A DNA stretch of 64,000 bases from Aulosira sp. ZfuVER01 (GCA_034530615.2 JAVRCV020000079.1:1-64000), one strand, 5' to 3'. Positions 1-15,814 are shown, counted from the stretch's first letter. Program-made: numbers and translations. The notes: a model not told the origin generated them from the sequence alone.

Positions 1-28
1 CCGTTCATTCTCTCAATATTAGTGTACC

Positions 29-490
29 TCATTTACCTGCAATTGGCTGTAAATACATTCCACACAAGTGCAATTGCTCTAAAACCGGACGTGCAGCCGG
101 AATAACTCCTCGTTGTTTGGCAGTAATAACAATACCTAATGTCCCCCGTACAGGAATTCCTAAAGTGGTAGCACAACGACGGGCTGCTAAATCATCTAGA
201 ATTACTTCCGTCCCAGGATTTATATAGCCCCACGCCAATACAGCTGACTCACCTTGACCCAAATCCCAATTCTGAATCACATTTGGGGCTGGTGGTGTTT
301 CTTGTACAATCAACCAATCAGTATTTTTGAGCGCAACTGCTGTTACGTCTGTTTCCCCATACTCCTGAATTTCTGCGGCTACAGCGTCAGGAACAATAAT
401 TGATGGGCTAATTATCTGCAACAAATCGATAAAGCCAGCCTTGGTTAAAAAAATTAGTGGAGATGTGTTGATAGCAGGTAGTTCAGCCAC
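29..490 (-). CDS. PIN-domain protein (DUF3368-like), putative toxin; C-terminus appears replaced by repeat-derived sequence
   Basis: Motifs INTSPLI, LGQGESAVL, ILDDLAARR and GTLG are typical of DUF3368 PIN proteins; overlaps the UPF0175 gene by 8 bp. Confidence 0.85.
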   Translation of the reverse strand: MAELPAINTSPLIFLTKAGFIDLLQIISPSIIVPDAVAAEIQEYGETDVTAVALKNTDWLIVQETPPAPNVIQNWDLGQGESAVLAWGYINPGTEVILDDLAARRCATTLGIPVRGTLGIVITAKQRGVIPAARPVLEQLHLCGMYLQPIAGK

Positions 491-734
491 GGTTTAACTC
501 GCGCTGTAAATCATCAAGGTCAACAGCAAAGACATCTACTTGTTCGCGGGCTAGGACGGCTAGAAAGTCTCGGCGGTTTAACCCAGCAACATTGGCTGCT
601 TTCTCCATTGAGATTTCCTGCTTCTGATACCAGTAGATAGCAGCAGCAAGGCGCATATCGCGCACAAATTCTTCTGGAGTCAGGCGACGGGCGCTAAATA
701 CTTCTTCTGGCAGAGTAATTGTGACTGACGACAT
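483..734 (-). CDS. UPF0175 family protein, putative antitoxin
   Basis: 83 aa; AAIYWYQKQEISMEKAANVAGLNRRDF HTH signature; directly upstream of the PIN gene. Confidence 0.85.
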   Translation of the reverse strand: MSSVTITLPEEVFSARRLTPEEFVRDMRLAAAIYWYQKQEISMEKAANVAGLNRRDFLAVLAREQVDVFAVDLDDLQRELNRG

Positions 735-972
735 AAATTATGTTCTCAATGGTTAAGGCTCTTGAAGCTGCAATTAATTAATGATATCAACCATGTCTAC
801 TTGATAAAAAAGTATTCCTTTTTTTCCAGCCCCTGACTACCCTGTGGGAACGCTACCCTAAACTATGAGGGCGATATTTGGGGTCGTTATGGTGTTAAGT
901 TGTGGTTGTTGGCAAGTTTAGAAATTTGGTTGGAGGTGAATAGATAATCCTTATATAGTATTTGTAGTATTT

Positions 973-997
973 GTAGAGGGGCATTGCCCACCCTACG
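973..997. repeat. GTAG-type REP-like palindrome
   Basis: gtagaggggcattgcccaccctac, which reads GTAGGGTGGGCAATGCCC on the minus strand. Confidence 0.55.
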
Positions 998-1031
998 TAT
1001 GTTGTATTTGTTAGGAAATCTGAAAATCTTT

Positions 1032-1544
1032 ATGACAAAAAAACTGATACAGCTCTCATGCTTGTTAATTTGCTTGTGGTTGGGATTTCCGATTTTTGTT
1101 GCTTCCGCCGAAACTCCAGAAGAATGGGTAACTCTGGGAAAGCGAGTACATGGAGGTTTTGGCAGTTATATTGCTCTAGGAATCCGTATAGGATTAGATG
1201 CAATGCAGCGTCTTGATGCTAAACCACGCGACTTAGACGTTACTTACCAAGATGGTGCTAATACGGCCTGTCCTTGCGTTGCGGATGGGATTATGATTGC
1301 GACAGTCGCCACGCCGGGACAAAATTCTCTGCGGATTCTTCCCTCTAAAAGTAACTCTAGCAACTTTGGTATTGCGCTAATTAAGAATAAGAAAACTGTA
1401 AAAACACTGCGTTATGTAATACCAGCTACAGCTAGTTCTTTACTTGATAAGTGGAACCAGGATCTAAACCCTCGCCAGCGCTATGATGCAGTCATGAATA
1501 CATCTAGTGATTCTCTATTTCGTATTGAAAGTAACATGAAATAA
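1032..1544 (+). CDS. FmdE-family (formylmethanofuran dehydrogenase subunit E-like) protein with signal peptide
   Basis: HGGFGSYIALGIRIG and CPCVADGI...ATPG motifs; hydrophobic N-terminus ending ASA; ATG at 1032 preferred over the TTG at 984. Confidence 0.75.
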   Translation: MTKKLIQLSCLLICLWLGFPIFVASAETPEEWVTLGKRVHGGFGSYIALGIRIGLDAMQRLDAKPRDLDVTYQDGANTACPCVADGIMIATVATPGQNSLRILPSKSNSSNFGIALIKNKKTVKTLRYVIPATASSLLDKWNQDLNPRQRYDAVMNTSSDSLFRIESNMK

Positions 1545-1657: not shown

Positions 1658-2956
1658 TCAACCGAAACTTTCGACAAAATAAATATCATTACCTGTATCG
1701 CCTACTAAAATCAAGCTACTATCATCAATTGCTAAATTTTGGCTACCAGTAATACCTCTTTGCAAAACTTTAATGATTCTTTGGGGAGTGAGAGATTCCA
1801 ATTCTACAAACTTTCCAGAATCCAACCATGCTAATTCTTCAGCAGTTAAATTCTGGCGAATTTCCCCAAACAAATCTTTAGCTGCTTGTGCTGAATCTGG
1901 AGAGGCTTGGATGAACATCCCCCGCTTAGTAGCAATAACTTGACGCGGTAATATACCAATATCGATAATCGTCACATTGCTATTGAGAAACCATTTAGGG
2001 CTGGTGCGGAGTTGATGAACTAAACTAATTCCTTTGGGACTGCAATCATGTAGTGCATATACTTTCAATTCCGGATTACGACGCAACATTTCCATTGTCG
2101 TGTCAAAGATACTTTGCGGATATCCAGTGACGCTGAGAATGGCACAGTTATTTTCAAAGTGGAAGTTATTAGATATTAATTGTTGAGCAATCGCAGTGCG
2201 ATCGCAAACTACTAATCTATCAAAACTGTAAGCAGTAACATCAGGATTGACTGTTACAGAGGCATTTTCTTCGCGCGCCGCAGGCAGAATTTTACTCACT
2301 GAACCATTGATTCTCTGCCAACGATTGAGCCATTCTTGAACCTGTACTTGTGTAATTAACAATTCCTGAACTACATCAACTCGAATTAGCTGTCTACTGC
2401 CTAAGTAGATTGATAACATTCCTGTGAGCACTACAACTACAAATGCCATGTATGATTTTAGGACAGATATACTCAAAAATATTCCTCCCACCAGAACGAT
2501 GGCTCCTGTGATTTGTAACATTCTGGCGCTCGTCTTTCTACCTATGCTGTTTAACTTACTAGATTGAGTATTTTTATATAAATAATATGTCGAACCTATT
2601 TGGTATACAGACCATACAATTAAAAAAGAACTACTTCCAAATATTTTTGAAAGTATAGTTCCAAAAAAACCTGTTACCCAAATAGTAAAGAATATATAGA
2701 TAATCAGAAAAAACCAGGTAAATGAATTTCGTTTCAGGCGCGCATCTAACAAATACAAAAGCTGTTTTGGTGTAAAAAATAATGTATTATTCGCAGAGAT
2801 ATCAGCTATAGCTTTGGCAAACATGGAGTCGGTAATTTTTACATTGCCCATAGCGGTAGGTTCAAATACAAATGGATGCCTGCATTGCATACACCGACCA
2901 TTATTAGCTGTTCTATCTCTTAGTTTATTGTCAGTTCCGCAGTTAATACATTTCAT
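1658..2956 (-). CDS. Zn-ribbon + ~4 TM + Spo11/TopoVI-A-like Toprim domain protein
   Basis: CxxC..CxxC at the N-terminus; TPKQLLY; hydrophobic segments; LVVCDRTAIAQQL, CAILSVTGYP, VYALHDCSPKG and GKFVELESL resemble TopoVI-A Toprim motifs. Confidence 0.65.
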   Translation of the reverse strand: MKCINCGTDNKLRDRTANNGRCMQCRHPFVFEPTAMGNVKITDSMFAKAIADISANNTLFFTPKQLLYLLDARLKRNSFTWFFLIIYIFFTIWVTGFFGTILSKIFGSSSFLIVWSVYQIGSTYYLYKNTQSSKLNSIGRKTSARMLQITGAIVLVGGIFLSISVLKSYMAFVVVVLTGMLSIYLGSRQLIRVDVVQELLITQVQVQEWLNRWQRINGSVSKILPAAREENASVTVNPDVTAYSFDRLVVCDRTAIAQQLISNNFHFENNCAILSVTGYPQSIFDTTMEMLRRNPELKVYALHDCSPKGISLVHQLRTSPKWFLNSNVTIIDIGILPRQVIATKRGMFIQASPDSAQAAKDLFGEIRQNLTAEELAWLDSGKFVELESLTPQRIIKVLQRGITGSQNLAIDDSSLILVGDTGNDIYFVESFG

Positions 2957-3033: not shown

Positions 3034-4221
3034 TTATTTTTCAATTACCTGATTCATTAACAAAACACTATAGTCTTCTCGCTTACGAATCAAACGATGT
3101 GTATGATTTTCTAAGAAAATTTCCGCAGGTTTAGGACGATGTAAAAAGTGAGAAGACATCGCATAACCATAAGCACCGACATCTAAAATGGCAAGAATAT
3201 CACCAATTTCTAAGGCTGGAAGTTGGCAATTTTTACCTAAATAATCTCTTGAGTAAGTCGTATTACCACAAACATCTGTTGGATAAATTCCCGTGTTCTC
3301 TCCTTTCTTCCATGTGATGATTTCTCGATAGCCACCATGTACAGCAGGAACTGAGAGATTAGCAACGGTGGTATCAACTCCCACAATCTGTTTTTCTGCT
3401 TGCCATTTTACAGATACAACTTGCGCTAACAAAGTACCACAACCTGCGATCGCAGCTCGTCCCGGTTCAATTACTAAATCAATTTTCCGCCCCAAAGCTG
3501 TAATTCGCTGTGTCAACTTTGCGCCAAACTCTTCCCAATCAAAAGCTACTCTACCGTGATGATAGGGATAGCCAAAGCCACCGCCAAAATCCAAATATTC
3601 CCAATCTGGTAACTTTTGCGCTGTCGCCAGCACAGTATCAATTACCTCGGTAAAAGCTTCTGTCGCATTAGTTCCAGTCCCCCGGTAAAAGTGCAACCCC
3701 CTGAGTTTCAATCCTGCTTGCTGAGTAATCGCCACTGCTGCGGAAAATTCCTCCGGATGTACACCAATGCGACTATCTCCAGTAAGTTCCGGTAAATTCA
3801 GCCGCAAACCCAGCCGAACTGATTCAATTTTGGATTGATAGACTTTGCAAAACAACTCCAGCTGATTAACACTGTCAAGATTGAGAGTAGTAACTCCCCA
3901 ATCCAAAACTTGAAGCATTTCATCTCGATTTAAATTACTGCCACTGTAAACAATATCACCAGGGTCAAAACCAGCTTGCAACCCCAGGTAAATATCTCCT
4001 GGTGTATTGGCGTGGAGTCCCCAGCCAGCAGCGCGAAAAATTTTGAGTAACGCAATATTCCCATTAGTAACGCTAGCAAAGTGAAATTGTGTGCGGGAAT
4101 AGGTGATGGCTTGAGTAATGCGGTTAATAGTTTGACGTAAGCGATCGCCATCATACACATAAAGCGGAGAACCGTAGATCTTTAGTAACTCCTGCGCCAA
4201 TTCTAAAGTTAAGCTTGCCAT
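3034..4221 (-). CDS. Diaminopimelate-decarboxylase-fold (PLP fold III) protein, non-canonical active site
   Basis: YGSPLYVYD, DFGGGFG, IEPGR and GAYG are conserved; FASVTN replaces FAxKAN and GNTTYSRD replaces GPxCESGD; ATG at 4221 overlaps the end of the upstream gene. Confidence 0.85.
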   Translation of the reverse strand: MASLTLELAQELLKIYGSPLYVYDGDRLRQTINRITQAITYSRTQFHFASVTNGNIALLKIFRAAGWGLHANTPGDIYLGLQAGFDPGDIVYSGSNLNRDEMLQVLDWGVTTLNLDSVNQLELFCKVYQSKIESVRLGLRLNLPELTGDSRIGVHPEEFSAAVAITQQAGLKLRGLHFYRGTGTNATEAFTEVIDTVLATAQKLPDWEYLDFGGGFGYPYHHGRVAFDWEEFGAKLTQRITALGRKIDLVIEPGRAAIAGCGTLLAQVVSVKWQAEKQIVGVDTTVANLSVPAVHGGYREIITWKKGENTGIYPTDVCGNTTYSRDYLGKNCQLPALEIGDILAILDVGAYGYAMSSHFLHRPKPAEIFLENHTHRLIRKREDYSVLLMNQVIEK

Positions 4222-6374
4222 CGCTTGTATTGTCTCCATAACCAACTAGGTAGCCAAAACGGATGATTAAGAGAATGTTTGCCTAGTTCTTCACCTAAAA
4301 TATGCGATCGCCAAAGTTGCCACATAATTAATAACCAAAGACTCTCACCAATCCGCCGCCCTTGAATAGTCCCTCCCAGTTCGCCTGTAACAATTTGTGC
4401 AGCTATTTGGGAAGAAAAACGGTTTTCAGCACTGAGTATACCTGGATTTAACCAGATACCTATATCGTGCCAAAACTCATTCAAACACCAGGAAGTTAAG
4501 GGAACACCCATACCCCGCTTTTGTCGCCAAACAATTTCCGGTGGTAGCCAATTTTCTACAGCCCGTTTGAGGATATATTTCTCACAAGCACCTTGTAAAC
4601 AGAGTTCACCAGATAAGCTAAACGTCCACTCTGCTAAAGGTATATCGCAAAAAGGCGATCGCACCCACAACCCATGCGCAAATCCCAAAGCAGTCGCACG
4701 AGGGTGGATATTTTGCGCCCCTTTCAGCATCAAGCTAGCGCGGCGGAGACGATGCAGCAAGGAAGGACAGCAAGTTGCATCCAGCGCCTCTAAAATCCAA
4801 TCTTGGGGATGTAAATTTTGTATCTGTGCGTAAACCTCTGATTGATAAATTTGCGATTCATACCCCCAAAGACGATGAAACGTGCGGAGATATTGCAGTA
4901 TAAAACTTTCTCCCGCCTGATAAATCCCCGCAGCAATTAAAGGCTTATTCGTCCACCCTGCAAATAATTGATCTCCACCTTCACCATTAAAAATTACACG
5001 AGTTTCCTGACTAGCTGTTTGCGCCAAGAGATACAAAGGAACAGTCACCCCATCACCAAAAGGTAAATCCAGTGCTTGTACAGCAGGAATTAAAGCCTTC
5101 TTAATTTCCTGGGGAGTCGCCGCCACTTTCACCAAGGGAATTTTGAGAAACTGTGCAACCTGTTCTGCATAAGGGAATTCTGGAATCCCAGCACCGCCAA
5201 AATCGAGAGTATAGGCGCGGACTTTCACCCCCGCTTGCACCAACAACGCCGCCACAATTGAAGAATCTAAGCCACCAGAGAGAAAAACTCCCACAGGTTC
5301 ATCTTTTAAATCAGCAATTTGCTGATGAATCGATGCTTTCAGGAGACTTTGCAATTGAGTAACGGCTGTAGTTTCATCTTTGATTTGTTCAGCCTGTTCC
5401 CGCCACGAATGAATACTTCGAGATTGCGGCTGACAGAGTTTACCCGATCCACAATTACCCTGCCAAATCAACTCAGTTCCCGCCGGGACTGCAAACACTT
5501 CATTAACAGGCGTTAGGGGAGTTGGGACGTAAGAAAAACAACTGTAACCATATAAGCCCGGAATGCTAACATCACGCTGTTGCAGAATCGGTAAAAGCAG
5601 TTGTAGCCGGGATGCAAACCAAATCACCTCTCCTTGCTGAGTCCAGTATAAAGGCACTCTGCCAAAAGCTTCTCTCGCCAAAATCAGGCAGTGATTTTCC
5701 CCTATACTTACCCAAGCATCCGGCGTAGAAGATAATCCTGACGCGGAAATAGCAGCAATTGTATTGTCTTGAGATTGAGAATTTTTATTTATTCCAAGAT
5801 GAACAACATTCCAAAGGAGTTGATTTTCCTTTTGGAAAAAATGCTGTGTAGACGGTGGAGACGTTGCAGACAAATTAGTTAACAACGCCGTCAATTCACG
5901 TTGAGAACCGTAACCCCAATAGCCTAGAATTGCAGGCTGTTGGACTGAGGAGAAGGAGGACAAGGGGGACAGGGGAGACAAGGGAGACAAAGGGACAAAT
6001 TGCGTTGTGAATTTATAATATCTTTTGAGCCTTTGAGCCTGAATGTTGAGCCTTTTTGCTTGGAAGTTGAACCTTTGAACCTGGAAGTTGAGCCTTTGAG
6101 CCTTTGAGCTTGACTGTTGCACCTTTTTGCTTGGACGTTGCGCCTTTGAGCTTGAACGTTGCACCTTTAAGCCTGACAGTTGCACCTTTTTGCTTGGACG
6201 TTGCGCCTTTAAGCTTGAACGTTGCACCTTTGAGCCTGGACGTTGCACCTTTTTGCTTGGACGTTGCGCCTTTGAGGCTGACAGTTGCACCTTTTTGCTT
6301 GGACGTTGCGCCTTTAAGCCTGAACGCTGCACTTTTGAGCCTAGAAGTTGCACTTTTAAGCCTGAACATTGCAC
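4209..6374 (-). CDS. Asparagine synthetase (AsnB)-like ATP-dependent amide ligase; true start uncertain, the ORF is extended through repeats
   Basis: REAFGRVPLYW, PP-loop FLSGGLDSS, NGEGGDQLFAG, RSPFCD and QKRGM; protein-like sequence begins at about 5945 and the first ~145 codons are repeat-derived. Confidence 0.8.
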   Translation of the reverse strand: MQCSGLKVQLLGSKVQRSGLKAQRPSKKVQLSASKAQRPSKKVQRPGSKVQRSSLKAQRPSKKVQLSGLKVQRSSSKAQRPSKKVQQSSSKAQRLNFQVQRFNFQAKRLNIQAQRLKRYYKFTTQFVPLSPLSPLSPLSSFSSVQQPAILGYWGYGSQRELTALLTNLSATSPPSTQHFFQKENQLLWNVVHLGINKNSQSQDNTIAAISASGLSSTPDAWVSIGENHCLILAREAFGRVPLYWTQQGEVIWFASRLQLLLPILQQRDVSIPGLYGYSCFSYVPTPLTPVNEVFAVPAGTELIWQGNCGSGKLCQPQSRSIHSWREQAEQIKDETTAVTQLQSLLKASIHQQIADLKDEPVGVFLSGGLDSSIVAALLVQAGVKVRAYTLDFGGAGIPEFPYAEQVAQFLKIPLVKVAATPQEIKKALIPAVQALDLPFGDGVTVPLYLLAQTASQETRVIFNGEGGDQLFAGWTNKPLIAAGIYQAGESFILQYLRTFHRLWGYESQIYQSEVYAQIQNLHPQDWILEALDATCCPSLLHRLRRASLMLKGAQNIHPRATALGFAHGLWVRSPFCDIPLAEWTFSLSGELCLQGACEKYILKRAVENWLPPEIVWRQKRGMGVPLTSWCLNEFWHDIGIWLNPGILSAENRFSSQIAAQIVTGELGGTIQGRRIGESLWLLIMWQLWRSHILGEELGKHSLNHPFWLPSWLWRQYKRWQA

Positions 6375-6405
6375 CTTTAAGCCTGAACGTTACGCCTTTG
6401 ATACT
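6024..6405. repeat. 21-bp tandem array, ~18 units (GTTGCACCTTT core + variable 10-mer)
   Basis: Units such as gttgcaccttt-ttgcttggac, gttgcgccttt-gagcttgaac and gttgcaccttt-aagcctgaca read directly. Confidence 0.95.
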
Positions 6406-6449: not shown

Positions 6450-7070
6450 CTACTTAACCTCAAACCTTTGATCGCTAATTTGCCGATCTTCAAGGAACAT
6501 CTGCACTTGCCAATTACCAACCGGTGCAGTCGCACCAATAGTATAACGACAGTAAGTATCCCAAATAGATGTATTAATATCACGAGTTTGATAACGGTTT
6601 TGCTTAACAATTTGACCGTTGGGATCGATCCAATTACAAGACAGAGATAGCTTTTTACCCACAGGTGCATCCTTCAAAGTCACACGGTAAAAAACTTCTG
6701 GACTGTTTTGCCGAGAGATACTATTTAAATTACCGCTATCCTGAACTAAAGTAATGCGGTCTTGCTGGGTAGAAACACGAGAAATTAGTGAATTATTTTG
6801 TTGCATAAAAAACACTGTAGATGCGATCGCAACTACTACAGCAGCAACTACTCCAGAAATAATCCAGCGATTTCGGCGTTCCTGTACCTTTAATGCTTGT
6901 CGCCGCCGCAACTGAATCAATGCTTCATCGAGTAACTCCGGTGGTAAATTCAACTCCCGTAAAATTTCCTGAACTTGCTGTTTGTCGAGTTCCGCTTCCT
7001 GACGTATTTGCAGCTCTTGTACTTCATCGATTATTTGTGATAATTGCTCTTGAGTTAATCGCTCCGTCAT
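6450..7070 (-). CDS. Single-TM protein with C-terminal Ig-like domain (DUF3859-like)
   Basis: N-terminal helical region, one TM (WIISGVVAAVVVAIASTVFF), CNWIDPNG and GNWQVQMFLE beta-rich domain. Confidence 0.65.
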   Translation of the reverse strand: MTERLTQEQLSQIIDEVQELQIRQEAELDKQQVQEILRELNLPPELLDEALIQLRRRQALKVQERRNRWIISGVVAAVVVAIASTVFFMQQNNSLISRVSTQQDRITLVQDSGNLNSISRQNSPEVFYRVTLKDAPVGKKLSLSCNWIDPNGQIVKQNRYQTRDINTSIWDTYCRYTIGATAPVGNWQVQMFLEDRQISDQRFEVK

Positions 7071-7339: not shown

Positions 7340-8818
7340 ATGTCAAACTCGCTCTCAGCATCAACGGCAGGACTGGCAATTGTAGACAAAGCACGGTTGC
7401 GTCTTGGTTGGACAAAAACCAGTACAGCGCGTTGGTGGCAAGATGCCCACACTTCTAGAGCTACATTACGGCGATTCTGGCAGGGCGATCGCATTCAGCG
7501 AGAAATCTTCATCGCTATCTGTCAAGCTGTTGGTATTACTAACTGGGAAGCGATCGCAGATTCTCCCGATCTCAACTCAGAAATTATCGCAGACATCCCT
7601 ACACCTTACCTTGACTGGAATGAAGCCCCAGATGTCGAAAGTTTTTATGGGCGAAATCAGGAATTAACGCAGTTAGAACAATGGATTGAGAGTGGCTGTA
7701 AGTTAGTCATGATTGTTGGTATTGCTGGGATCGGCAAAACTGCTCTAGCACTTGCTTTAATAGATAGAATTCAATCAAAATTCGATAGCTTGATTTGGAA
7801 ATCTCTTCATTCTGCACCATCTTTAAATTCTTTACTGGATAGCTTGCTGCATAACTTTGATGAAGGCGCTGTTCGCGATCTCCCCCAACTCATACACCAC
7901 CTGCAACAACGTCGCTGTCTATTAATACTTGATGGGTTAGAAGCAGATTTGAATAACTATAGTCAATTTATCCAAAAAATTAGCCGCGGCCATCAAAGTT
8001 GCATTCTCATCACCAGCCGCGAACAACCAAAGGCGATTGAAATCGACACAAAAACAGTTCGCTGTTTAAACCTCAAGGGTTTGCCAAAAACAGAGGCTTT
8101 AGAATTATTGCAATCGAGAGGATTTACAGGTAAAGAACTAGGACTATCAGCCTTAATTCAACTTTATCGCGGCAATCCCTTAGCGCTGAAACTGGTAACG
8201 CCATTGATTCAGTTGGTGTTTGCTGGGAATGTGGCTGGATTTCTCACTCAAAATACTTTGGTGATTGGCGATCGCTTACGAGTTATTCTGAAACAACAAT
8301 TCGAGCAACTTGGCGATTTAGAACAAGATATTCTTTATTGGTTGGCAATTTGGCAAGAACCAGTCTCTTTCTCTCGCTTGCAAACTCATCTATTAATAGC
8401 CATCGATCCGGCTACGGTATTAGAGGCAATTGTCGCGTTAGAAAGGCGATCGCTTTTGGAAAAATGGATCGGTATAGGGGAAATCTCATTTAGCTTGCAA
8501 CCTTTGGTGATGAAAGTCGTTACCGATGAATTGGTAGAACAAACTGCGCAAGAGATTCAACAGGTAGTGCAGAGTAATGATATCCGTCATTTTAAAATAT
8601 TGCGCACCCATTGGTTACTGCGACCTGGTACTGATGATATTGCAGGCGATCGCATTTTGTCTCAACTGCGCGATCGTTTGTGGCGGTTGTATGGTGCAAC
8701 TCTACCACAAACCTTGGAGCAGATGTTGTTACTTTTAAAGGATAAATCTCCGTTGGCAACTGGTTATATCGCTTGTAATGTAGCGGTACTCCTTAAGCAG
8801 TTGAGGATACCTGGATGA
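7340..8818 (+). CDS. HTH + NB-ARC/STAND NTPase without C-terminal repeat domain
   Basis: HTH-like N-terminus (TSRATLRRFWQG), FYGR, Walker A GIAGIGKT, Walker B LLILDG, LITSR and GNPLAL. Confidence 0.85.
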   Translation: MSNSLSASTAGLAIVDKARLRLGWTKTSTARWWQDAHTSRATLRRFWQGDRIQREIFIAICQAVGITNWEAIADSPDLNSEIIADIPTPYLDWNEAPDVESFYGRNQELTQLEQWIESGCKLVMIVGIAGIGKTALALALIDRIQSKFDSLIWKSLHSAPSLNSLLDSLLHNFDEGAVRDLPQLIHHLQQRRCLLILDGLEADLNNYSQFIQKISRGHQSCILITSREQPKAIEIDTKTVRCLNLKGLPKTEALELLQSRGFTGKELGLSALIQLYRGNPLALKLVTPLIQLVFAGNVAGFLTQNTLVIGDRLRVILKQQFEQLGDLEQDILYWLAIWQEPVSFSRLQTHLLIAIDPATVLEAIVALERRSLLEKWIGIGEISFSLQPLVMKVVTDELVEQTAQEIQQVVQSNDIRHFKILRTHWLLRPGTDDIAGDRILSQLRDRLWRLYGATLPQTLEQMLLLLKDKSPLATGYIACNVAVLLKQLRIPG

Positions 8819-9187: not shown

Positions 9188-12100
9188 ATGACTATGGCAA
9201 CTGAACAGTTAATTAAAGAAAACGACAATTTAGATTTAAAACAGCTATTAAGAATTCTAAATGCTGTCAAAAAAGGCGATTTTTCTGCTCGGATGCCCAT
9301 AGATCAAACAGGCATAGCCGGGAAAATCTCCGATACCCTTAACGACATTATTGAGCAGAATGAGCGCATGGCAGCAGAGCTACAGCGCATCGGTAATGTT
9401 GTTGGTAAAGATGGTAAGGTTTCAGAACGCGCTTCTTTAGGAAATGTTCGCGGTTCTTGGTTAAGTTGTGTTAATTCTGTTAACACATTAATTACGGATT
9501 TAGTCCAGCCAACAGCAGAAACTACTCGCGTAATTAGGGCTGTAGCTAATGGTGATTTATCCCAGACGATCGCACCAGAAATTGAAGGCAGACCCCTCAA
9601 AGGAGAGTTTCTCCAAACTGCCAACATTGTCAACACAATGGTAGATCGGCTTGGCTCCTTTGCATCGGAAGTAACCAGGGTTGCCCGGGAAGTGGGAACC
9701 GAAGGTAAGCTGGGTGTACAAGCGCAAGTTAGCGGTGTAGCGGGTACGTGGAAAGATTTGACCGATAACGTTAACTTGATGGCGGGTAATCTTACCGGAC
9801 AAGTGCGGAACATTGCCGAAGTTGCAACTGCGATCGCAAATGGCGACCTCTCGAAGAAAATTACAGTTAATGTCAAAGGCGAAATTCTCGAGTTGAAAAA
9901 CACCGTCAACACCATGGTGGATCAACTTAACTCCTTTGCCTCAGAAGTAACCAGGGTTGCCCGGGAAGTGGGAACCGAAGGTAAGTTAGGCGTACAAGCA
10001 GAAGTGCGCGGTGTGGCTGGTACGTGGAAAGACTTGACCGATAACGTGAACTTGATGGCAGGAAATTTGACTGCGCAAGTACGTAATATTGCGGAAGTAA
10101 CAACAGCGGTAGCGAATGGCGACCTCTCGAAGAAAATTACTGTAGATGTCAAGGGCGAGATTTTAGAACTGAAAAACACCGTCAATATCATGGTGGATCA
10201 ACTCAACTCCTTTGCATCAGAAGTAACCAGGGTTGCCCGAGAGGTGGGTGCAGAAGGAAAACTCGGCGGTCAAGCGGAAGTGAAGGGCGTGGCGGGTACG
10301 TGGAAAGACCTCACCGACAGCGTAAACTTCATGGCAGGCAGTTTGACAGCCCAGGTGCGGAACATCGCGGAAGTGACAACGGCGGTGGCGAATGGCGACC
10401 TTTCCAAGAAAATCACTGTGGATGTGAAAGGTGAAATTTTAGAGTTGAAAAACACGATCAACACGATGGTGGATCAACTCAACTCCTTTGCCTCAGAAGT
10501 AACACGGGTGGCGAGAGAGGTGGGAACGGAAGGAAAACTGGGCGTACAAGCAGAAGTGCGAGGGGTAGCGGGTACGTGGAAAGACCTCACCGACAATGTA
10601 AACCTGATGGCGGGGAATCTTACCGGACAGGTGCGGAACATTGCGGAAGTGACAACGGCGGTGGCGAACGGCGACCTCTCGAAGAAAATCACTGTGGATG
10701 TCAAGGGCGAAATTTTGGAGTTGAAAAACACCGTTAATATCATGGTGGATCAACTTAACTCTTTTGCATCAGAAGTAACCAGGGTTGCCCGAGAGGTGGG
10801 TGCAGAAGGAAAACTCGGCGGTCAAGCGGAAGTGAAGGGCGTGGCGGGTACGTGGAAAGACCTCACCGACAGCGTAAACTTCATGGCAGGCAGTTTGACA
10901 GCCCAGGTGCGGAACATCGCAGAAGTAACAACAGCGGTGGCAACCGGCGACCTTTCCAAGAAAATCACTGTGGATGTGAAAGGCGAAATTCTGGAGTTAA
11001 AAAACACGATCAACACAATGGTGGATCAACTCAACTCCTTCGCCTCAGAAGTAACCAGAGTTGCCCGAGAGGTGGGAAGTGAAGGAAAATTAGGCGTACA
11101 AGCCGAAGTGCGTGGGGTGGCAGGTACGTGGAAAGACCTCACCGACAGCGTGAACTTCATGGCAGGCAGTTTGACAGCCCAAGTACGGAACATCGCGGAA
11201 GTGACAACGGCGGTGGCGAACGGCGACCTTTCTAAGAAAATCACCGTGGATGTGCGGGGCGAAATTTTGGAGTTGAAAAATACCATCAATACAATGGTGG
11301 ATCAACTGAGTTCCTTTGCATCGGAAGTAACTAGGGTTGCCCGAGAGGTGGGAACGGAAGGGAAATTAGGCGTACAAGCCGAGGTGCGAGGTGTAGCGGG
11401 TACGTGGAAGGATTTGACTGGTGCGGTGAATATGATGGCGGGTAATCTGACCGACCAGGTACGGAACATCGCCGAAGTTGCAACTGCGATCGCCAACGGC
11501 GACCTCTCAAAGAAAATCACCGTGCAAGTTAAAGGTGAAATTCTCGAGTTGAAAAACACGATCAACATCATGGTGGATCAGCTCAACTCCTTCGCCTCAG
11601 AAGTAACCAGGGTGGCGCGAGAAGTAGGAAGTGAAGGAAAACTGGGCGTACAAGCAGATGTGCGCGGTGTGGCGGGTACGTGGAAAGACCTCACCGACAG
11701 CGTGAACTTCATGGCGGGTAGTTTGACGGCCCAGGTACGGAACATCGCCGCTGTGACAACGGCGGTGGCAAATGGCGACCTTTCTAAGAAAATTTCTGTG
11801 GATGTCAAAGGTGAAATTTTGGAGTTAAAAAACACCGTCAATACGATGGTGGATCAACTCAACTCCTTCGCCTCAGAAGTAACGCGGGTGGCACGAGAGG
11901 TGGGAACTGAAGGAAAATTAGGCGTACAAGCCGAGGTGAAGGGAGTCGCGGGTACGTGGAAAGACCTCACCGACAGCGTGAACTTCATGGCGGGAAGCTT
12001 GACGGCACAGGTGCGGAACATCGCGGAAGTGACAACGGCGGTGGCGAACGGCGACCTTTCCAAGAAAATCACTGTGGATGTGAAAGGCGAAATTCTGGAG

Positions 12101-15100
12101 TTGAAAAACACGATCAACACAATGGTGGATCAACTTAACTCCTTTGCCTCAGAAGTAACCAGGGTTGCCCGGGAGGTGGGAACCGAAGGTAAACTGGGCG
12201 TGCAAGCCTACGTCCGCGGGGTCGCGGGTACGTGGAAAGATTTGACCGACAATGTAAACTCAATGGCGGGGAACCTGACAGCCCAGGTGCGGAACATTGC
12301 GGAAGTGACGAAGGCGGTGGCGAACGGCGACCTCTCGAAAAAAATCACCGTGGATGTGCGGGGTGAAATTTTGGAGTTGAAAGACACCATCAATACAATG
12401 GTGGATCAGCTAAGTTCCTTTGCCTCAGAAGTAACGCGGGTGGCGCGGGAGGTGGGAACGGAAGGAAAATTAGGCGGTCAAGCGCAAGTGCAAGGCGTAG
12501 CGGGAACGTGGAAAGATTTGACCGACAATGTGAACTCGATGGCGGGTAACTTAACAGCCCAGGTGCGAGGTATCGCCAGAGTTGTAACGGCGGTGGCGAA
12601 TGGGGACTTGAAACGCAAATTAATGCTGGATGCTAAGGGAGAAATTGAAACTTTAGCAGAGACCATCAACGAAATGATTGACACCCTTGCCACCTTTGCC
12701 AATCAGGTAACTACAGTGGCGCGGGAAGTGGGAATTGAAGGAAAGCTAGGCGGTCAAGCTAAGGTACCTGGTGCGGCGGGAACCTGGAAAGATTTGACAG
12801 ACAACGTGAACGAACTGGCTGCAACTCTCACCACCCAGCTAAGAGCGATCGCAGAAGTGGCAACAGCGGTAACAAAAGGCGATCTAACTCGTTCGATTGC
12901 GGTGGAAGCTTTAGGGGAAGTAGCGATCCTTAAAGACAACATCAACCAGATGATCGCTAACCTGCGAGAGACAACGCAGAAAAATACCGAACAAGACTGG
13001 TTAAAAACTAACCTCGCCAAGTTTACCCGAATGCTGCAAGGTCAGCGCGATTTGGAAACTGTATCCAAATTAATTCTCTCCGAACTTGCACCCCTGGTAG
13101 GAGCGCAACATGGCGTATTCTACATGATGGAAAGCCCAGAGAATCAAGCCTATCTCAAACTACTGAGTAGCTATGCTTACCGCGAACGTAAACATTTAGC
13201 TAACCGCTTCCACATGGGTGAAGGTTTGGTAGGACAATGCGCTTTAGAAAAAGAGCGAATTCTGCTCACAGATGTACCGGGTGATTATGTCAAAATTAGC
13301 TCTGGTTTAGGAGAATCCGCGCCACTCAATGCGGTTGTTTTACCTGTATTGTTTGAAGGGCAAGTAACGGCGGTGATTGAATTAGCTTCCTTCCGCCGCT
13401 TTAGCGAGATTCATTTAACCTTCTTCGACCAACTCACTGAAAGTATTGCGATCGTCTTAAATACGATCGCGGCTTCGATGCGGACTGAAGAATTGCTCAA
13501 GCAGTCGCAATCTTTGGCAGAAGAACTGCAAACCCAGCAAAACGAACTGAGAGAAACCAACAAGCGTCTAGAACAGCAAGCCCAATCACTCAAAGCTTCC
13601 GAAGATTTACTCAGAGGACAGCAAGAAGAACTGCAACAAACCAACGCGGAATTAGAAGAAAAAGCCGAGTTGCTGGCACTGCAAAAGAAAGAAGTCGAGC
13701 GTAAAAATCTAGAAATTGAACAAGCAAGAAAGTCTTTGGAAGAGAAAGCAGAACAACTAGCCCTCTCATCTAAATATAAGTCTGAGTTTCTGGCGAATAT
13801 GTCCCACGAACTGCGGACACCGCTAAATAGCTTGTTAATTTTGGCTCGGCTATTAGCAGATAACATTGAAGGCAATCTCACCAGTAAGCAAATTGAATAT
13901 AGCCAGACAATTTACTCAGCAGGTACTGACTTGTTGACGTTGATTAATGACATTTTGGATCTGGCGAAAATCGAATCTGGAACTATGTCAATTGATCTGC
14001 ACCAGATGTTATTTTCCGAGTTGGGCGATCAACTCGAGCGCACCTTTGGGCAAATCGCCCAGAATAAAGGACTCAACTTTACAATTGACTTGGCTCCCGA
14101 ATTACCCAAAACCCTATACACCGATAGCAAACGCTTACAACAAGTACTGAAGAATTTACTTTCCAATGCCTTTAAATTTACAGAACGTGGAGAGGTAAGC
14201 TTGCGGGTTGAGGTGGCTAAAGAAGGTTGGAGCGTCTCTCAAGAAAGCTTGAATCGCGCCCAAACTGTGATTGCTTTCTCGGTTAGCGATACAGGTATTG
14301 GGATTGCGCCAGAAAAACAAAAAGTAATTTTTGAAGCTTTCCAACAAGCTGATGGTAGTACGAGTAGAAAATACGGCGGTACAGGATTAGGCTTATCAAT
14401 TAGCCGCGAAATTGCCCGCTTGTTTGGTGGCGAAATCAAACTTGTTAGTCACCCCAGTCAAGGAAGTACTTTTACTTTCTACTTACCGCAAACGAGTCCA
14501 GAGTTACGTGGGTTAAGTCCTGAGACTTTAACACCAAGACCAATTTCCCTCTCCAACTCTAATTCTCTCAAGCCTCAGTTGCCATTAACTAGTCTCAACT
14601 CCTCACCCCTGAATGACGATCGCGCTATTCTCGCAGACGACGATCGCGTGCTGCTAATTGTGGAAGATGACATCAACTTCGCCCGTATCCTCCTAGATAT
14701 GGCGCGACAGCAGGGTTTTAAGGTAATCACCGCCCAAAACGGCAGTATCGGCCTCACCCTAGCACAGCAATTCCAGCCTTCCGCAATTTTATTAGATATC
14801 CGCTTGCCAGAGATGGATGGCTGGACGGTGCTAGATCGGCTGAAACATAACCCCCATACCCGTCACATCCCTGTACATATTATGACGGTTGAGGAAGGGC
14901 GACAACGCGGACTGCAACTCGGAGCGATCGCCTATCTGCAAAAGCCCTTAACTAGCGAGACAATTTCCGATGCCTTAACTAAAATTAAAGGCTTTATCGA
15001 ACGGCGAGTGAAAAGCCTGCTGGTAGTGGAAGATGATGATACCCAACGCAACAGCATTATCGAATTAATTGGTAACAGTGACGTAACCACCACGGCGGTA

Positions 15101-15814
15101 GGTACAGGTGCAGAAGCCTTGGAAGCAATTCGCAATCAGTATTTTGATTGCCTTGTCCTCGATTTAGGACTACCAGATATGAGTGGTTTTGAATTGATCG
15201 AGCAGATTAAGCAGCTACCCAATGGTGAATCTTTACCTGTAATTGTTTATACTGGGCAAGAACTTAACAGAACACAAGAAACCGAACTGCGGCGGTTAGC
15301 GGATACGATTATCGTCAAAGATGTGCGATCGCCCGAACGTCTTTTAGATGAAACCGCATTATTTTTACACCGAGTCCAAGCAAATTTACCTGCACCCAAA
15401 CGAGAAATCCTCGAACAGCTACACGCTAGAGACTACTTACTCACAGGTAAGAAAGTGCTAATTGTAGACGACGATGTGCGTAATATCTTTGCCTTAACAA
15501 GTATGCTAGAGCGTTATCAAATGCAGGTGGTATACGCAGAGAATGGGAGAGAAGGTATTGCCGTTTTAGAAAAGACACCCGATATTGATATTGTTTTGAT
15601 GGACGTAATGATGCCCGAAATGGACGGTTACGAAACAACACGTTTAATCCGCCAGAACAATAAATTACGAGCCTTGCCGATCGTGGCACTCACAGCTAAA
15701 GCCATGCAAGGCGATCGCGAAAAATGCATTGAAGCCGGCGCATCCGACTACATCACCAAACCTGTAGATACAGAACAATTGCTTTCTTTATTGCGCGTTT
15801 GGCTATATAGATAG
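9188..15814 (+). CDS. Poly-HAMP hybrid histidine kinase (HAMP array-GAF-coiled coil-HisKA-HATPase-3 REC)
   Basis: About 12-13 tandem 92-aa units ([18 protein letters not shown]), H-box [24 protein letters not shown], three receiver domains. Confidence 0.95.
9600..12960 (+). repeat. 276-bp intragenic tandem repeat encoding di-HAMP units
   Basis: gaagtaaccagggttgcc-like motif recurs every 276 bp. Confidence 0.95.

What the first reader, a model, noticed from the sequence alone, without database searches (positions are those of the whole stretch)
1658..2956. Membrane-embedded Spo11/TopoVI-A-like protein with N-terminal Zn ribbon
Seen: an N-terminal CxxC..CxxC, then FFTPKQLLY, about 4 TM helices, then LVVCDRTAIAQQL / NNCAILSVTGYP / LKVYALHDCSPKGISL / IGILP / ELAWLDSGKFVELESL. 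Established knowledge: TopoVI-A/Spo11 has TxRx(L/I)(Y/F)Y with the catalytic Tyr, then VVEKDAVFxRL, CILITGKGYP, VYxLxDxDPxG and KAEIEAL in the same order. Inference: this is a Spo11/TopoVI-A (JetD-like) fold with a TM hairpin bundle inserted between the Tyr-bearing winged-helix start and the Toprim domain. The Toprim Glu is replaced by Asp and DxD by DxS, so the chemistry may be altered or lost. A membrane-anchored Toprim protein of this kind is not a family I recognise; it could be a defence effector or a DNA sensor.
Basis: partly seen in the sequence, partly recalled or inferred. Interest (0 to 1): 0.82.

Follow-up and report, generated by a model that had tools for sequence, protein, structure and literature searches.

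The report
Membrane topoisomerase relic docks amide ligase
The gene encodes a membrane-anchored descendant of the DNA-cutting subunit of type IIB topoisomerases that has lost most of its cutting residues and probably serves instead as the docking site, and likely the substrate, of an asparagine-synthetase-like enzyme in a widespread, apparently undescribed bacterial operon.

Summary
The ORF is real: minus strand, 432 aa. It has a Zn ribbon, a Tyr motif, a helical membrane insert and a TopoVI-A/Spo11-type Toprim domain (Pfam above cut-off; best fold matches TopoVI-A). The Tyr segment also aligns with Topo VIII (hhalign 96.7%). The cleavage site is degenerate: Tyr, Glu and DxD occur together in 0 of 131 homologues, and the genome has no TopoVI-B match.

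The gene sits in a conserved operon with two glutaminase-less AsnB-like ligases (AS1, AS2), a LysA paralogue lacking its PLP lysine (or a cupin instead), and a one-TM DUF3859-like protein. It co-occurs with AS2 in 44 of 46 AS2-positive genomes. It ends in a conserved acidic [DE]xFG tail, which in Streptomyces moves to a separate neighbouring protein.

A complex model of AS2 with the Toprim domain scored 0.79 against 0.07 for the best control. The family's most conserved surface and the tail lie at the interface.

Best reading: a dead topoisomerase subunit reused as a membrane dock whose C-terminus is activated by AS2. The chemistry and physiological role are untested. DNA sensing or defence remains a minority reading.

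The parts
1658..2956 (-). TOP: 432-aa membrane protein derived from a type IIB topoisomerase A subunit
2882..2950 (-). Zn ribbon, C3/C6/C22/C25 (each Cys in 117-118 of 117-118 aligned homologues)
   Evidence: weak profile hits to RNA-polymerase Zn ribbons, E >= 0.1
2753..2773 (-). T62-x-K-Q-L-x-Y68, in the position of the catalytic-Tyr motif (Y in 118 of 127)
2384..2716 (-). Hydrophobic helical insert, aa 81-191, probably four TM helices; shorter or absent in relatives
1733..2230 (-). TopoVI-A/Topo VIII-type Toprim domain, aa 243-408, with a degenerate metal site (D252, D304, S306); aa 243-296 form the predicted AS2 docking face
1790..1810 (-). T2BI-box equivalent, aa 383-389 (E385 in 106 of 129; S or A at 388 in 106 of 129)
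1661..1717 (-). Disordered acidic tail, aa 414-432, ending ESFG; conserved [DE]xFG C-terminus
3034..4245 (-). LysA-like fold-III protein lacking the PLP Lys (Val in 96 of 96) and the catalytic Cys (Thr in 97 of 97)
4209..5990 (-). AS1: AsnB-like ATP ligase without the N-terminal Cys. The start is uncertain (about 5963-5990); the open frame runs on to 6374 through a tandem repeat
6450..7070 (-). Protein with one hydrophobic segment and a DUF3859-like C-terminal domain (below Pfam cut-off); first gene of the operon
868..948 (+). Duplicated 3' end of AS2 (91% identity over 81 bp). The intact AS2 gene lies on another contig, G000:C81:172-1893, minus strand

Best explanation
TOP is a catalytically dead or much altered descendant of a type IIB topoisomerase A subunit (Topo VI-A / Topo VIII type), anchored in the membrane with both soluble parts on one side. 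Its Toprim domain has been reused as a docking surface for the AsnB-like ligase AS2. Its acidic tail, ending [DE]xFG-COOH, reaches the AS2 active site. There a tail carboxylate, most likely the C-terminal Gly, is adenylated and coupled to an amine nucleophile other than glutamine-derived ammonia. AS1 would perform a second step. The lysine-less LysA paralogue, or in other genomes a cupin, would supply or handle the amine. The tail is thus either the end target of a protein modification or a tethered carrier for a small metabolite. SHOWN by computation: fold, loss of the canonical site, operon, co-occurrence, tail conservation, loss of Cys1 and of the PLP Lys. MODELLED: AS2-TOP binding. INFERRED: topology, tail placement in the active site, adenylation, identity of the nucleophile, and the roles of AS1 and the LysA paralogue.
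For: Operon: in 80 Nostocales loci, an AsnB-like gene is present in 77, the LysA-like gene in 76 and the DUF3859-like gene in 73. An AsnB-like gene lies within two genes of TOP in 19 of 19 intact distant loci and is present in 78 of 80 metagenome loci; the two misses are 1.3- and 1.6-kb contigs. Co-occurrence in 301 genomes: TOP 49, AS2 46, both 44, including genomes where the two genes are far apart. Tail: FG end in 111 of 131 representatives and DxFG in 75 of 77 complete metagenome copies. In Streptomyces the paralogue family tested lacks the tail (0 of 120), while a separate small protein ends DDFG in 118 of 120; their locus tags are adjacent in 20 of 20 strains showing both, and AS2 follows in the one locus read. 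AS1 (50 copies) and AS2 (51 copies) keep SGGxDS, GEGGD and the RxK lysine but no N-terminal Cys was found. Complex model: 0.79 against best control 0.07; the mark was reached by 116 of 157 solved and 2 of 215 mismatched pairs; runs share at least 76% of contacts; partner pLDDT at least 77. The interface holds TOP 243-296 and tail residues 426 and 428-432, and AS2 D326-L328, D353 and S503-L511. Interface residues are more conserved than the rest of the region (0.70 vs 0.50). Precedent: AS-like enzymes modify peptide C-termini (FzmA, PesC, TsrC, ScdTA; PMC13622209 and PMC13060819, passages).
Against: No activity, product or expression was shown. The complex is a model: its calibration holds only roughly for my own alignments and ligands, and its 25 best pairs all involve the Toprim face, so the tail-to-active-site pairing is my inference from the residue lists. 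The Glu...Tyr pair after GEGGD in the genome's ordinary AsnB is Gln...Trp in AS1 and Pro...Pro in AS2. By spacing this is the dyad that PMC13060819 links to amidation, so standard amidation chemistry may not apply. The amine source is unclear, since the LysA paralogue lacks its catalytic Lys and Cys. 20 of 131 representatives do not end in FG; some look truncated. Two genomes have AS2 without TOP and five have TOP matches without AS2 (three of these are fragments or weak hits). Tyr68 and two acidic Toprim residues stay conserved, which a pure dock does not obviously need. Related genomes and near-duplicate metagenome contigs are not independent.
Confidence: 0.55

Rival explanations
1. TOP is a membrane-bound DNA sensor or defence switch. 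The Zn ribbon, Tyr segment and Toprim domain still bind DNA without cutting it, and the AsnB-like enzymes arm, lock or relay it through the tail.
For: The Tyr motif and the T2BI box are both kept. Fold neighbours include JetD and MksG. Distribution is patchy: 2 of 14 other genomes of the own genus and 49 of 301 in the phylum. An ion-channel gene lies in 8 of 80 metagenome loci.
Against: No PADLOC match. The conserved neighbours are metabolic-type genes. The basic residue before the Tyr is Glu in 67 of 78 in one clade. The conserved surface is explained by AS2 docking. The Tyr may be kept for packing against the T2BI box, as described for TopoVI-A (PMC7671362, passages).
Confidence: 0.2
2. The tail is only a docking plug or pseudo-substrate. 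AS1 and AS2 make a small amide metabolite or modify an envelope component, and TOP only holds the complex at the membrane.
For: The complex model shows binding but no chemistry. Accessory genes are small-molecule enzymes: an aminobutyraldehyde-dehydrogenase-like gene in 4 of 80 metagenome loci and in the Streptomyces locus, a cupin in 13 of 80, a LysA-like gene in 14 of 80. The best NCBIfam matches of AS1 and AS2 are ordinary amidotransferases, all below cut-off.
Against: The tail always ends exactly at FG and is kept on a separate protein when the TOP paralogues lose it, as expected if the free C-terminal carboxylate is used.
Confidence: 0.18
3. TOP is still an active DNA transesterase or nuclease with a variant metal site.
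For: Y68 in 118 of 127, an acidic residue at 252 in 108 of 131, D304 in 101 of 131. Plant SPO11-2 tolerates DxN (PMC11302465, passages). Two Streptomyces paralogues in one locus keep an intact DxD.
Against: Y, E, D, D together in 0 of 131 and Y, acidic, D, D in 1 of 131. No TopoVI-B match in the own genome. The DxD-bearing Streptomyces paralogues lack the Toprim Glu.
Confidence: 0.07

Closest known systems
Topo VIII A-part (P. amygdali pMPPla107 enzyme, named in PMC7671362) and Mini-A
   Same: Tyr segment, Toprim domain and T2BI box in the same order. hhalign gives 96.7%, E 4.4e-10, for the profile with TM-less members and 92.8%, Toprim only, for the full-length profile.
   Different: No GHKL part, no complete E/DxD site, an added Zn ribbon, membrane insert and acidic tail; not found in phage or viral collections, and on 2 plasmid records only.
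TopoVI-A / Spo11 (1d3y, 2zbk, 2q2e, 8uru)
   Same: Toprim fold (Z 12.5, 11.3, 10.6, 8.2), PF21180 above cut-off, ungapped 64-residue register.
   Different: Catalytic set incomplete, no B subunit found in the genome, no PF04406 match in 301 genomes that include the 49 TOP carriers, membrane-anchored.
Wadjet JetD / MksG nuclease
   Same: Toprim fold (8b7f Z 10.1; 7til among the top Foldseek hits for the TM-less paralogue).
   Different: No PADLOC match, no SMC-type genes among the recurrent neighbours, DxD lost.
AS-like enzymes acting on peptide C-termini (TsrC, ScdTA, PesC, FzmA)
   Same: An ATP-dependent AsnB-fold enzyme encoded beside a ribosomal product with a conserved C-terminus (PMC13622209, PMC13060819, passages).
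   Different: The putative substrate is a large membrane protein recognised through a Toprim domain, not a short precursor peptide. There are two ligases, no N-terminal Cys, and the Glu...Tyr pair is replaced.
GSP-synthetase-like / DUF350 / DUF1190 / K+ channel polyamine operons (PMC11237479, passages)
   Same: An amide ligase with membrane proteins, an ion channel and amine-metabolism genes in one operon.
   Different: Those use an ATP-grasp ligase and a PspA-like partner and have no Toprim protein; this is an analogy only.
LysW-type amino-group carrier proteins (recalled, not tested)
   Same: A Zn ribbon plus an acidic C-terminal tail with an aromatic-Gly motif, loaded by an ATP-dependent ligase.
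   Different: LysW is small and soluble and is loaded on a terminal Glu by an ATP-grasp enzyme; no homology test was run.

Membership tests
TopoVI-A / Spo11 | Toprim domain of the TOP6A/Spo11 type | tested here: met
   PF21180 27.7 bits vs cut-off 24.1; fold searches
TopoVI-A / Spo11 | Winged-helix (5Y-CAP) domain with the catalytic Tyr | tested here: inconclusive
   Tyr and spacing are conserved and align with Topo VIII by hhalign; no fold search superposed this part; no PF04406 hit
TopoVI-A / Spo11 | Toprim Glu plus DxD metal site | tested here: not met
   D252/D304/S306; canonical set in 0 of 131; register
TopoVI-A / Spo11 | TopoVI-B partner | tested here: not met
   PF09239 not found in the own genome, 99.99% complete; it rings in 4 archaeal controls
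Topo VIII | GHKL/transducer part fused to, or paired with, the A part | tested here: not met
   TOP has a Zn ribbon instead; no GHKL gene among the recurrent neighbours
Topo VIII / Mini-A | T2BI box (R/KxExxA/S) | tested here: met
   E385 and S/A388 each in 106 of 129, aligned to the Topo VIII box; the leading basic residue is not conserved
Topo VIII / Mini-A | E and DxDxxG conserved in every member (PMC7671362) | tested here: not met
Wadjet JetD/MksG | Encoded with jetABC (SMC complex) and matching JetD models | tested here: not met
   0 PADLOC families; neighbourhoods
AS-like peptide C-terminal modifying systems | AsnB synthetase domain with an intact ATP site | tested here: met
   PF00733 above cut-off; SGGxDS, GEGGD and Lys conserved
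AS-like peptide C-terminal modifying systems | Co-encoded ribosomal product with a conserved C-terminus | tested here: met
AS-like peptide C-terminal modifying systems | Conserved Tyr-carboxylate dyad for amidation | tested here: not met
   Q...W in AS1 and P...P in AS2 against E...Y in one of the genome's ordinary AsnB proteins; the match to the published dyad is by spacing only
AS-like peptide C-terminal modifying systems | Covalent modification of the C-terminal carboxylate | not testable with these tools
   needs an in vitro assay or mass spectrometry
LysA / fold-III PLP decarboxylases (neighbour gene) | Schiff-base Lys and catalytic Cys | tested here: not met
   Val in 96 of 96 and Thr in 97 of 97, against Lys and Cys in the genome's own LysA
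Glutamine-dependent asparagine synthetase B (AS1, AS2) | N-terminal Cys nucleophile | tested here: not met
   MSGICG/MSAIAG-type or degenerate N-termini; the genome's ordinary AsnB genes keep the Cys

The most novel reading that the evidence does not exclude
A topoisomerase cleavage subunit has been turned into a membrane-tethered carrier protein. It recruits AsnB-fold ligases through its dead Toprim domain and has a metabolite built on, or attached to, its C-terminal Gly. A lysine-less PLP protein supplies a new kind of amine chemistry, and the retained Zn ribbon and Tyr segment may gate the reaction on DNA or oligomer state. That would be a new class of bacterial C-terminal protein conjugation.
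Probability: 0.3. Interest if true: 0.9.

Novelty: new variant of a known kind. Interest (0 to 1): 0.72.

Why it matters
[quoted passage not shown] It also defines a directly testable enzyme-substrate pair for a common, uncharacterised AsnB-like clade in cyanobacteria, Streptomyces and environmental bacteria. Finally, it points to a tightly conserved LysA paralogue that has lost its PLP lysine, whose chemistry is unknown.

Tried and rejected
Single-sequence PDB search gave nothing useful. Profile searches gave only weak hits: 1d3y at E 0.16-0.34 and none with the mixed profile. PADLOC and PHROGs had no family for TOP. No relatives were found in phages or viral contigs, and the viral fold search had no hit at E <= 0.001. 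The Atlas nevertheless listed a mostly viral 316-aa cluster at score 0.90 for the TM-less paralogue, which I did not follow up.

Folding a natural TM-less paralogue (pLDDT 84.7) did not give a superposition of the winged helix; only the Toprim part aligned. A search for cyanobacterial TopoVI-A to compare against found 0 of 301. No RNA holder was listed; this is not evidence either way.

No other tail-bearing protein stands out in the own genome: 21 of 6115 ORFs end in FG, about the 17 of a rough chance estimate. The five weaker LysA-like hits (E about 1e-60) were set aside as ordinary LysA after checking one, which has its Lys and Cys. Cluster look-ups of 20 representatives named only one organism, a cyanobacterium, so the range beyond Cyanobacteriota and Actinomycetota is unnamed. 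The first clustering of metagenome loci merged families and was redone with labelled references.

Literature: ten searches found no paper describing this operon. The library lacks most subscription journals. PMC13380299 was not held; I read passages of its preprint. No supplements were read, and the AS-family similarity networks in the supplements of those two preprints could contain these enzymes.

Full report
OBSERVATION. The finding is a 432-aa ORF on the minus strand, 1658-2956, with every quoted motif in place. The closest named homologues are from Nostocales (1708 hits among 8000 scored, best 120 listed). Pfam already places aa 250-318 in PF21180 above cut-off, and some database names say 'TOP6A/Spo11 TOPRIM domain-containing', so the domain assignment itself is not new. 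The AlphaFold model (pLDDT 92.8, tail 414-432 disordered) has TopoVI-A or Spo11 as its top 8 Foldseek hits. VIA-align gives 1d3y at Z 12.5, rmsd 3.5, 166 aa, and MksG at Z 10.1. Only the Toprim half superposes.

ANCESTRY OF THE TYR SEGMENT. A weak plasmid hit led to the P. amygdali pMPPla107 GHKL-Toprim fusion, which PMC7671362 names as Topo VIII (passages). A profile that includes the TM-less Streptomyces paralogues aligns to it at 96.7% probability, E 4.4e-10. The alignment covers the helix and Tyr motif before the insert as well as the Toprim domain. The full-length profile aligns only the Toprim part (92.8%), including aa 383-389 on the T2BI box. Folding a TM-less paralogue again matched only the Toprim half. 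The winged helix is therefore supported by sequence profile but not shown by fold.

CATALYTIC SITE. The ungapped alignment to 1d3y fixes the register. I aligned 131 sequences: the query plus the representatives of 330-500 aa among the best 150 of 1047 hits. Y68 is present in 118 of 127. Position 252 is D83/E25/Q14/N5, position 304 is D101/N24, and position 306 is S90/T26/D6. Y-E-D-D occurs in 0 of 131 and Y-acidic-D-D in 1 of 131. In 78 metagenome copies, D252 and D304 are invariant but the basic residue at 64 is Glu in 67 (these loci were selected by motif and are not independent). No TopoVI-B match was found in the own genome. Published definitions require E and DxD (PMC7671362), with DxN the one exception (PMC11302465). 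TOP is therefore not a member of these families, though it derives from them.

TOPOLOGY. Basic residues cluster at aa 60-80, 126-147 and 186-222 and are scarce at 100-112 and 164-172. The stretch from Y68 to W213 is bimodal in length (80-99 aa in 45 and 140-159 aa in 43 of 127), and a TM-less paralogue exists. This fits zero, two or four helices with both soluble parts on one side. It is an inference: the crude hydropathy count was noisy (0-6 windows per protein).

CONTEXT. Of 80 Nostocales loci (best 80 of 385), 77 carry an AsnB-like gene, 76 the LysA-like gene and 73 the DUF3859-like gene, mostly in the window's order upstream of TOP. Twenty distant regions were fetched; 19 have an intact TOP and all 19 have an AsnB-like gene within two genes. 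In 80 metagenome loci (best 80 of 321) the core is AS1-TOP-AS2: any AS gene in 78, both in 54, DUF3859-like in 17, LysA-like in 14, cupin in 13, LysA-like and cupin together in 0, K+ channel in 8, aldehyde dehydrogenase in 4 (many contigs are short). Over the same 301 genomes, TOP matched 49 and AS2 46, with 44 in common (counted by hand). All 38 strong LysA-paralogue hits fall in TOP-positive genomes. The operon is patchy: 2 of 14 other genomes of the own genus have it. The own AS2 lies at the end of contig C81, and a copy of its 3' end sits at window 868-948. Two same-genus genomes have AS2 convergent with TOP about 0.6-1.1 kb downstream. The same layout is likely here, but the contig join is not shown.

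PARTNERS. AS1 and AS2 keep the ATP-site motifs and lack the N-terminal Cys. The Glu...Tyr pair after GEGGD is replaced by Q...W in AS1 and P...P in AS2. The LysA paralogue has Val for the PLP Lys (96 of 96) and Thr for the catalytic Cys (97 of 97), yet keeps the Gly loop and EPGR and has new invariant residues; the genome has a normal LysA elsewhere (the set is dominated by Nostocales).

THE TAIL. TOP ends in FG in 111 of 131 representatives, [DE]xFG in 98, and DxFG in 75 of 77 complete metagenome copies. The one Streptomyces locus read holds a cupin, three tail-less TOP paralogues, a small protein ending DDFG, AS2 and an aminobutyraldehyde-dehydrogenase-like gene. That small protein ends DDFG in 118 of its best 120 homologues, while 0 of 120 homologues of paralogue 3 end in FG. 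The two genes have adjacent locus tags in all 20 strains where both tags were shown (counted by eye). The tail is thus a separable, conserved unit tied to AS2.

COMPLEX MODEL. The own AS2 with ATP, Mg and TOP 228-432 scored 0.79 against a best control of 0.07. The mark was reached by 116 of 157 solved and 2 of 215 mismatched pairs; these counts hold only roughly here. The runs share at least 76% of contacts and the partner pLDDT is at least 77. My PDB searches found no solved relative of TOP beyond the topoisomerase fold, so a pass from memory seems unlikely, but I did not search for a like complex. The best pairs join AS2 363-384, just after its clade-specific GPKNxP motif, to TOP 261-290, the family's most conserved stretch. 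Tail residues 426 and 428-432 and AS2 D326-L328, D353 and S503-L511 are also at the interface. That the tail lies in the active site is my inference, since those pairs are not listed. TOP interface residues are more conserved than the rest of the region (0.70 vs 0.50), whereas the AS2 difference is small (0.72 vs 0.68). The docking motif is also kept in 110 of 120 Streptomyces paralogue-3 sequences.

MECHANISM. Most likely (0.55), TOP is a membrane dock and substrate or carrier for AS2, which activates a tail carboxylate and couples it to an amine. Precedent exists for AS-like enzymes acting on peptide C-termini (PMC13622209: abstract, outline and passages; PMC13060819: passages). A looser analogy is the GSP-ligase/DUF350/K+ channel operons (PMC11237479: passages). 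The rivals are DNA sensing or defence (0.20), tail as a non-covalent plug for a metabolite-making complex (0.18), and active nuclease (0.07). The nucleophile, the product and the physiological role are unknown.

NOVELTY. Ten literature searches found no description of the operon; subscription journals and supplements were not seen. Two earlier AI notes of this scan reached a similar tail-modification reading in other genomes. I saw them after recording mine, and they are not independent support. Beyond what those short notes showed, this report adds the Topo VIII link, the quantified loss of the cleavage site, the lysine-less LysA, the Streptomyces split of the tail, and the docking model. Verdict: a real and apparently undescribed system, filed as a new variant of AS-like C-terminal modification, interest 0.72.

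Noticed in passing
window 29-734 (-): DUF3368 / UPF0175 gene pair (probable toxin-antitoxin module; label recalled) between the contig start and the duplicated AS2 3' end. The gap between TOP and AS2 holds varying inserts in relatives.
   Followed up: partly
window 984-1544 (+): FmdE-family gene convergent with TOP; a near-identical ORF lies between AS2 and TOP in G303.
   Followed up: partly
window 6025-6401: 21/42-bp tandem repeat (about 17.6 copies of 21 bp) upstream of AS1. It extends the AS1 frame by about 130 low-complexity codons and creates spurious ORFs.
   Followed up: partly
window 7340-8818 (+) and 9188-15814 (+): An NB-ARC/STAND protein divergent from the operon, followed by a 2208-aa protein with many internal repeats that looks like a multi-HAMP hybrid histidine kinase (read from the sequence).
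   Followed up: no
L216:2966-9000 (G000:C81): Upstream of the own AS2 lie a CHASE2 Ser/Thr kinase, DUF350, a FemAB/GNAT protein and a spermidine-synthase-domain protein. A DUF350-like gene and the kinase are also next to AS2 in G308, but DUF350 is not seen in the G303 stretch.
   Followed up: partly
L132 (Gloeothece plasmid NC_014534.1): The full five-gene module lies on a linear plasmid near a TIGR04222 membrane protein, methyltransferases and a protelomerase gene.
   Followed up: no
G020, G107, G314; P0121: Tandem duplications of TOP, some fragmented, and an 845-aa protein with two matching stretches. Together with the three Streptomyces paralogues this hints at hetero-oligomers.
   Followed up: no
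L124:9103-10959 (G202): An in-frame fusion of a truncated AS1 and a truncated LysA paralogue in a genome without an AS2 match; possibly a decaying operon.
   Followed up: no
L131:5393-8558: Streptomyces paralogues 1 and 2 keep the Zn ribbon, hydrophobic segments and an intact DxD but lack the docking motif; paralogue 3 keeps the docking motif and lacks the TM insert. All three have a GF[LM][ST]WP motif near the C-terminus.
   Followed up: partly
Atlas hit for P0373: A 60-member cluster of about 316 aa, mostly viral among members with a record, scoring 0.90; possibly Mini-A-like relatives.
   Followed up: no
window 1-55: The contig start matches the ends of four other contigs exactly, suggesting a collapsed repeat at the assembly break.
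   Followed up: partly
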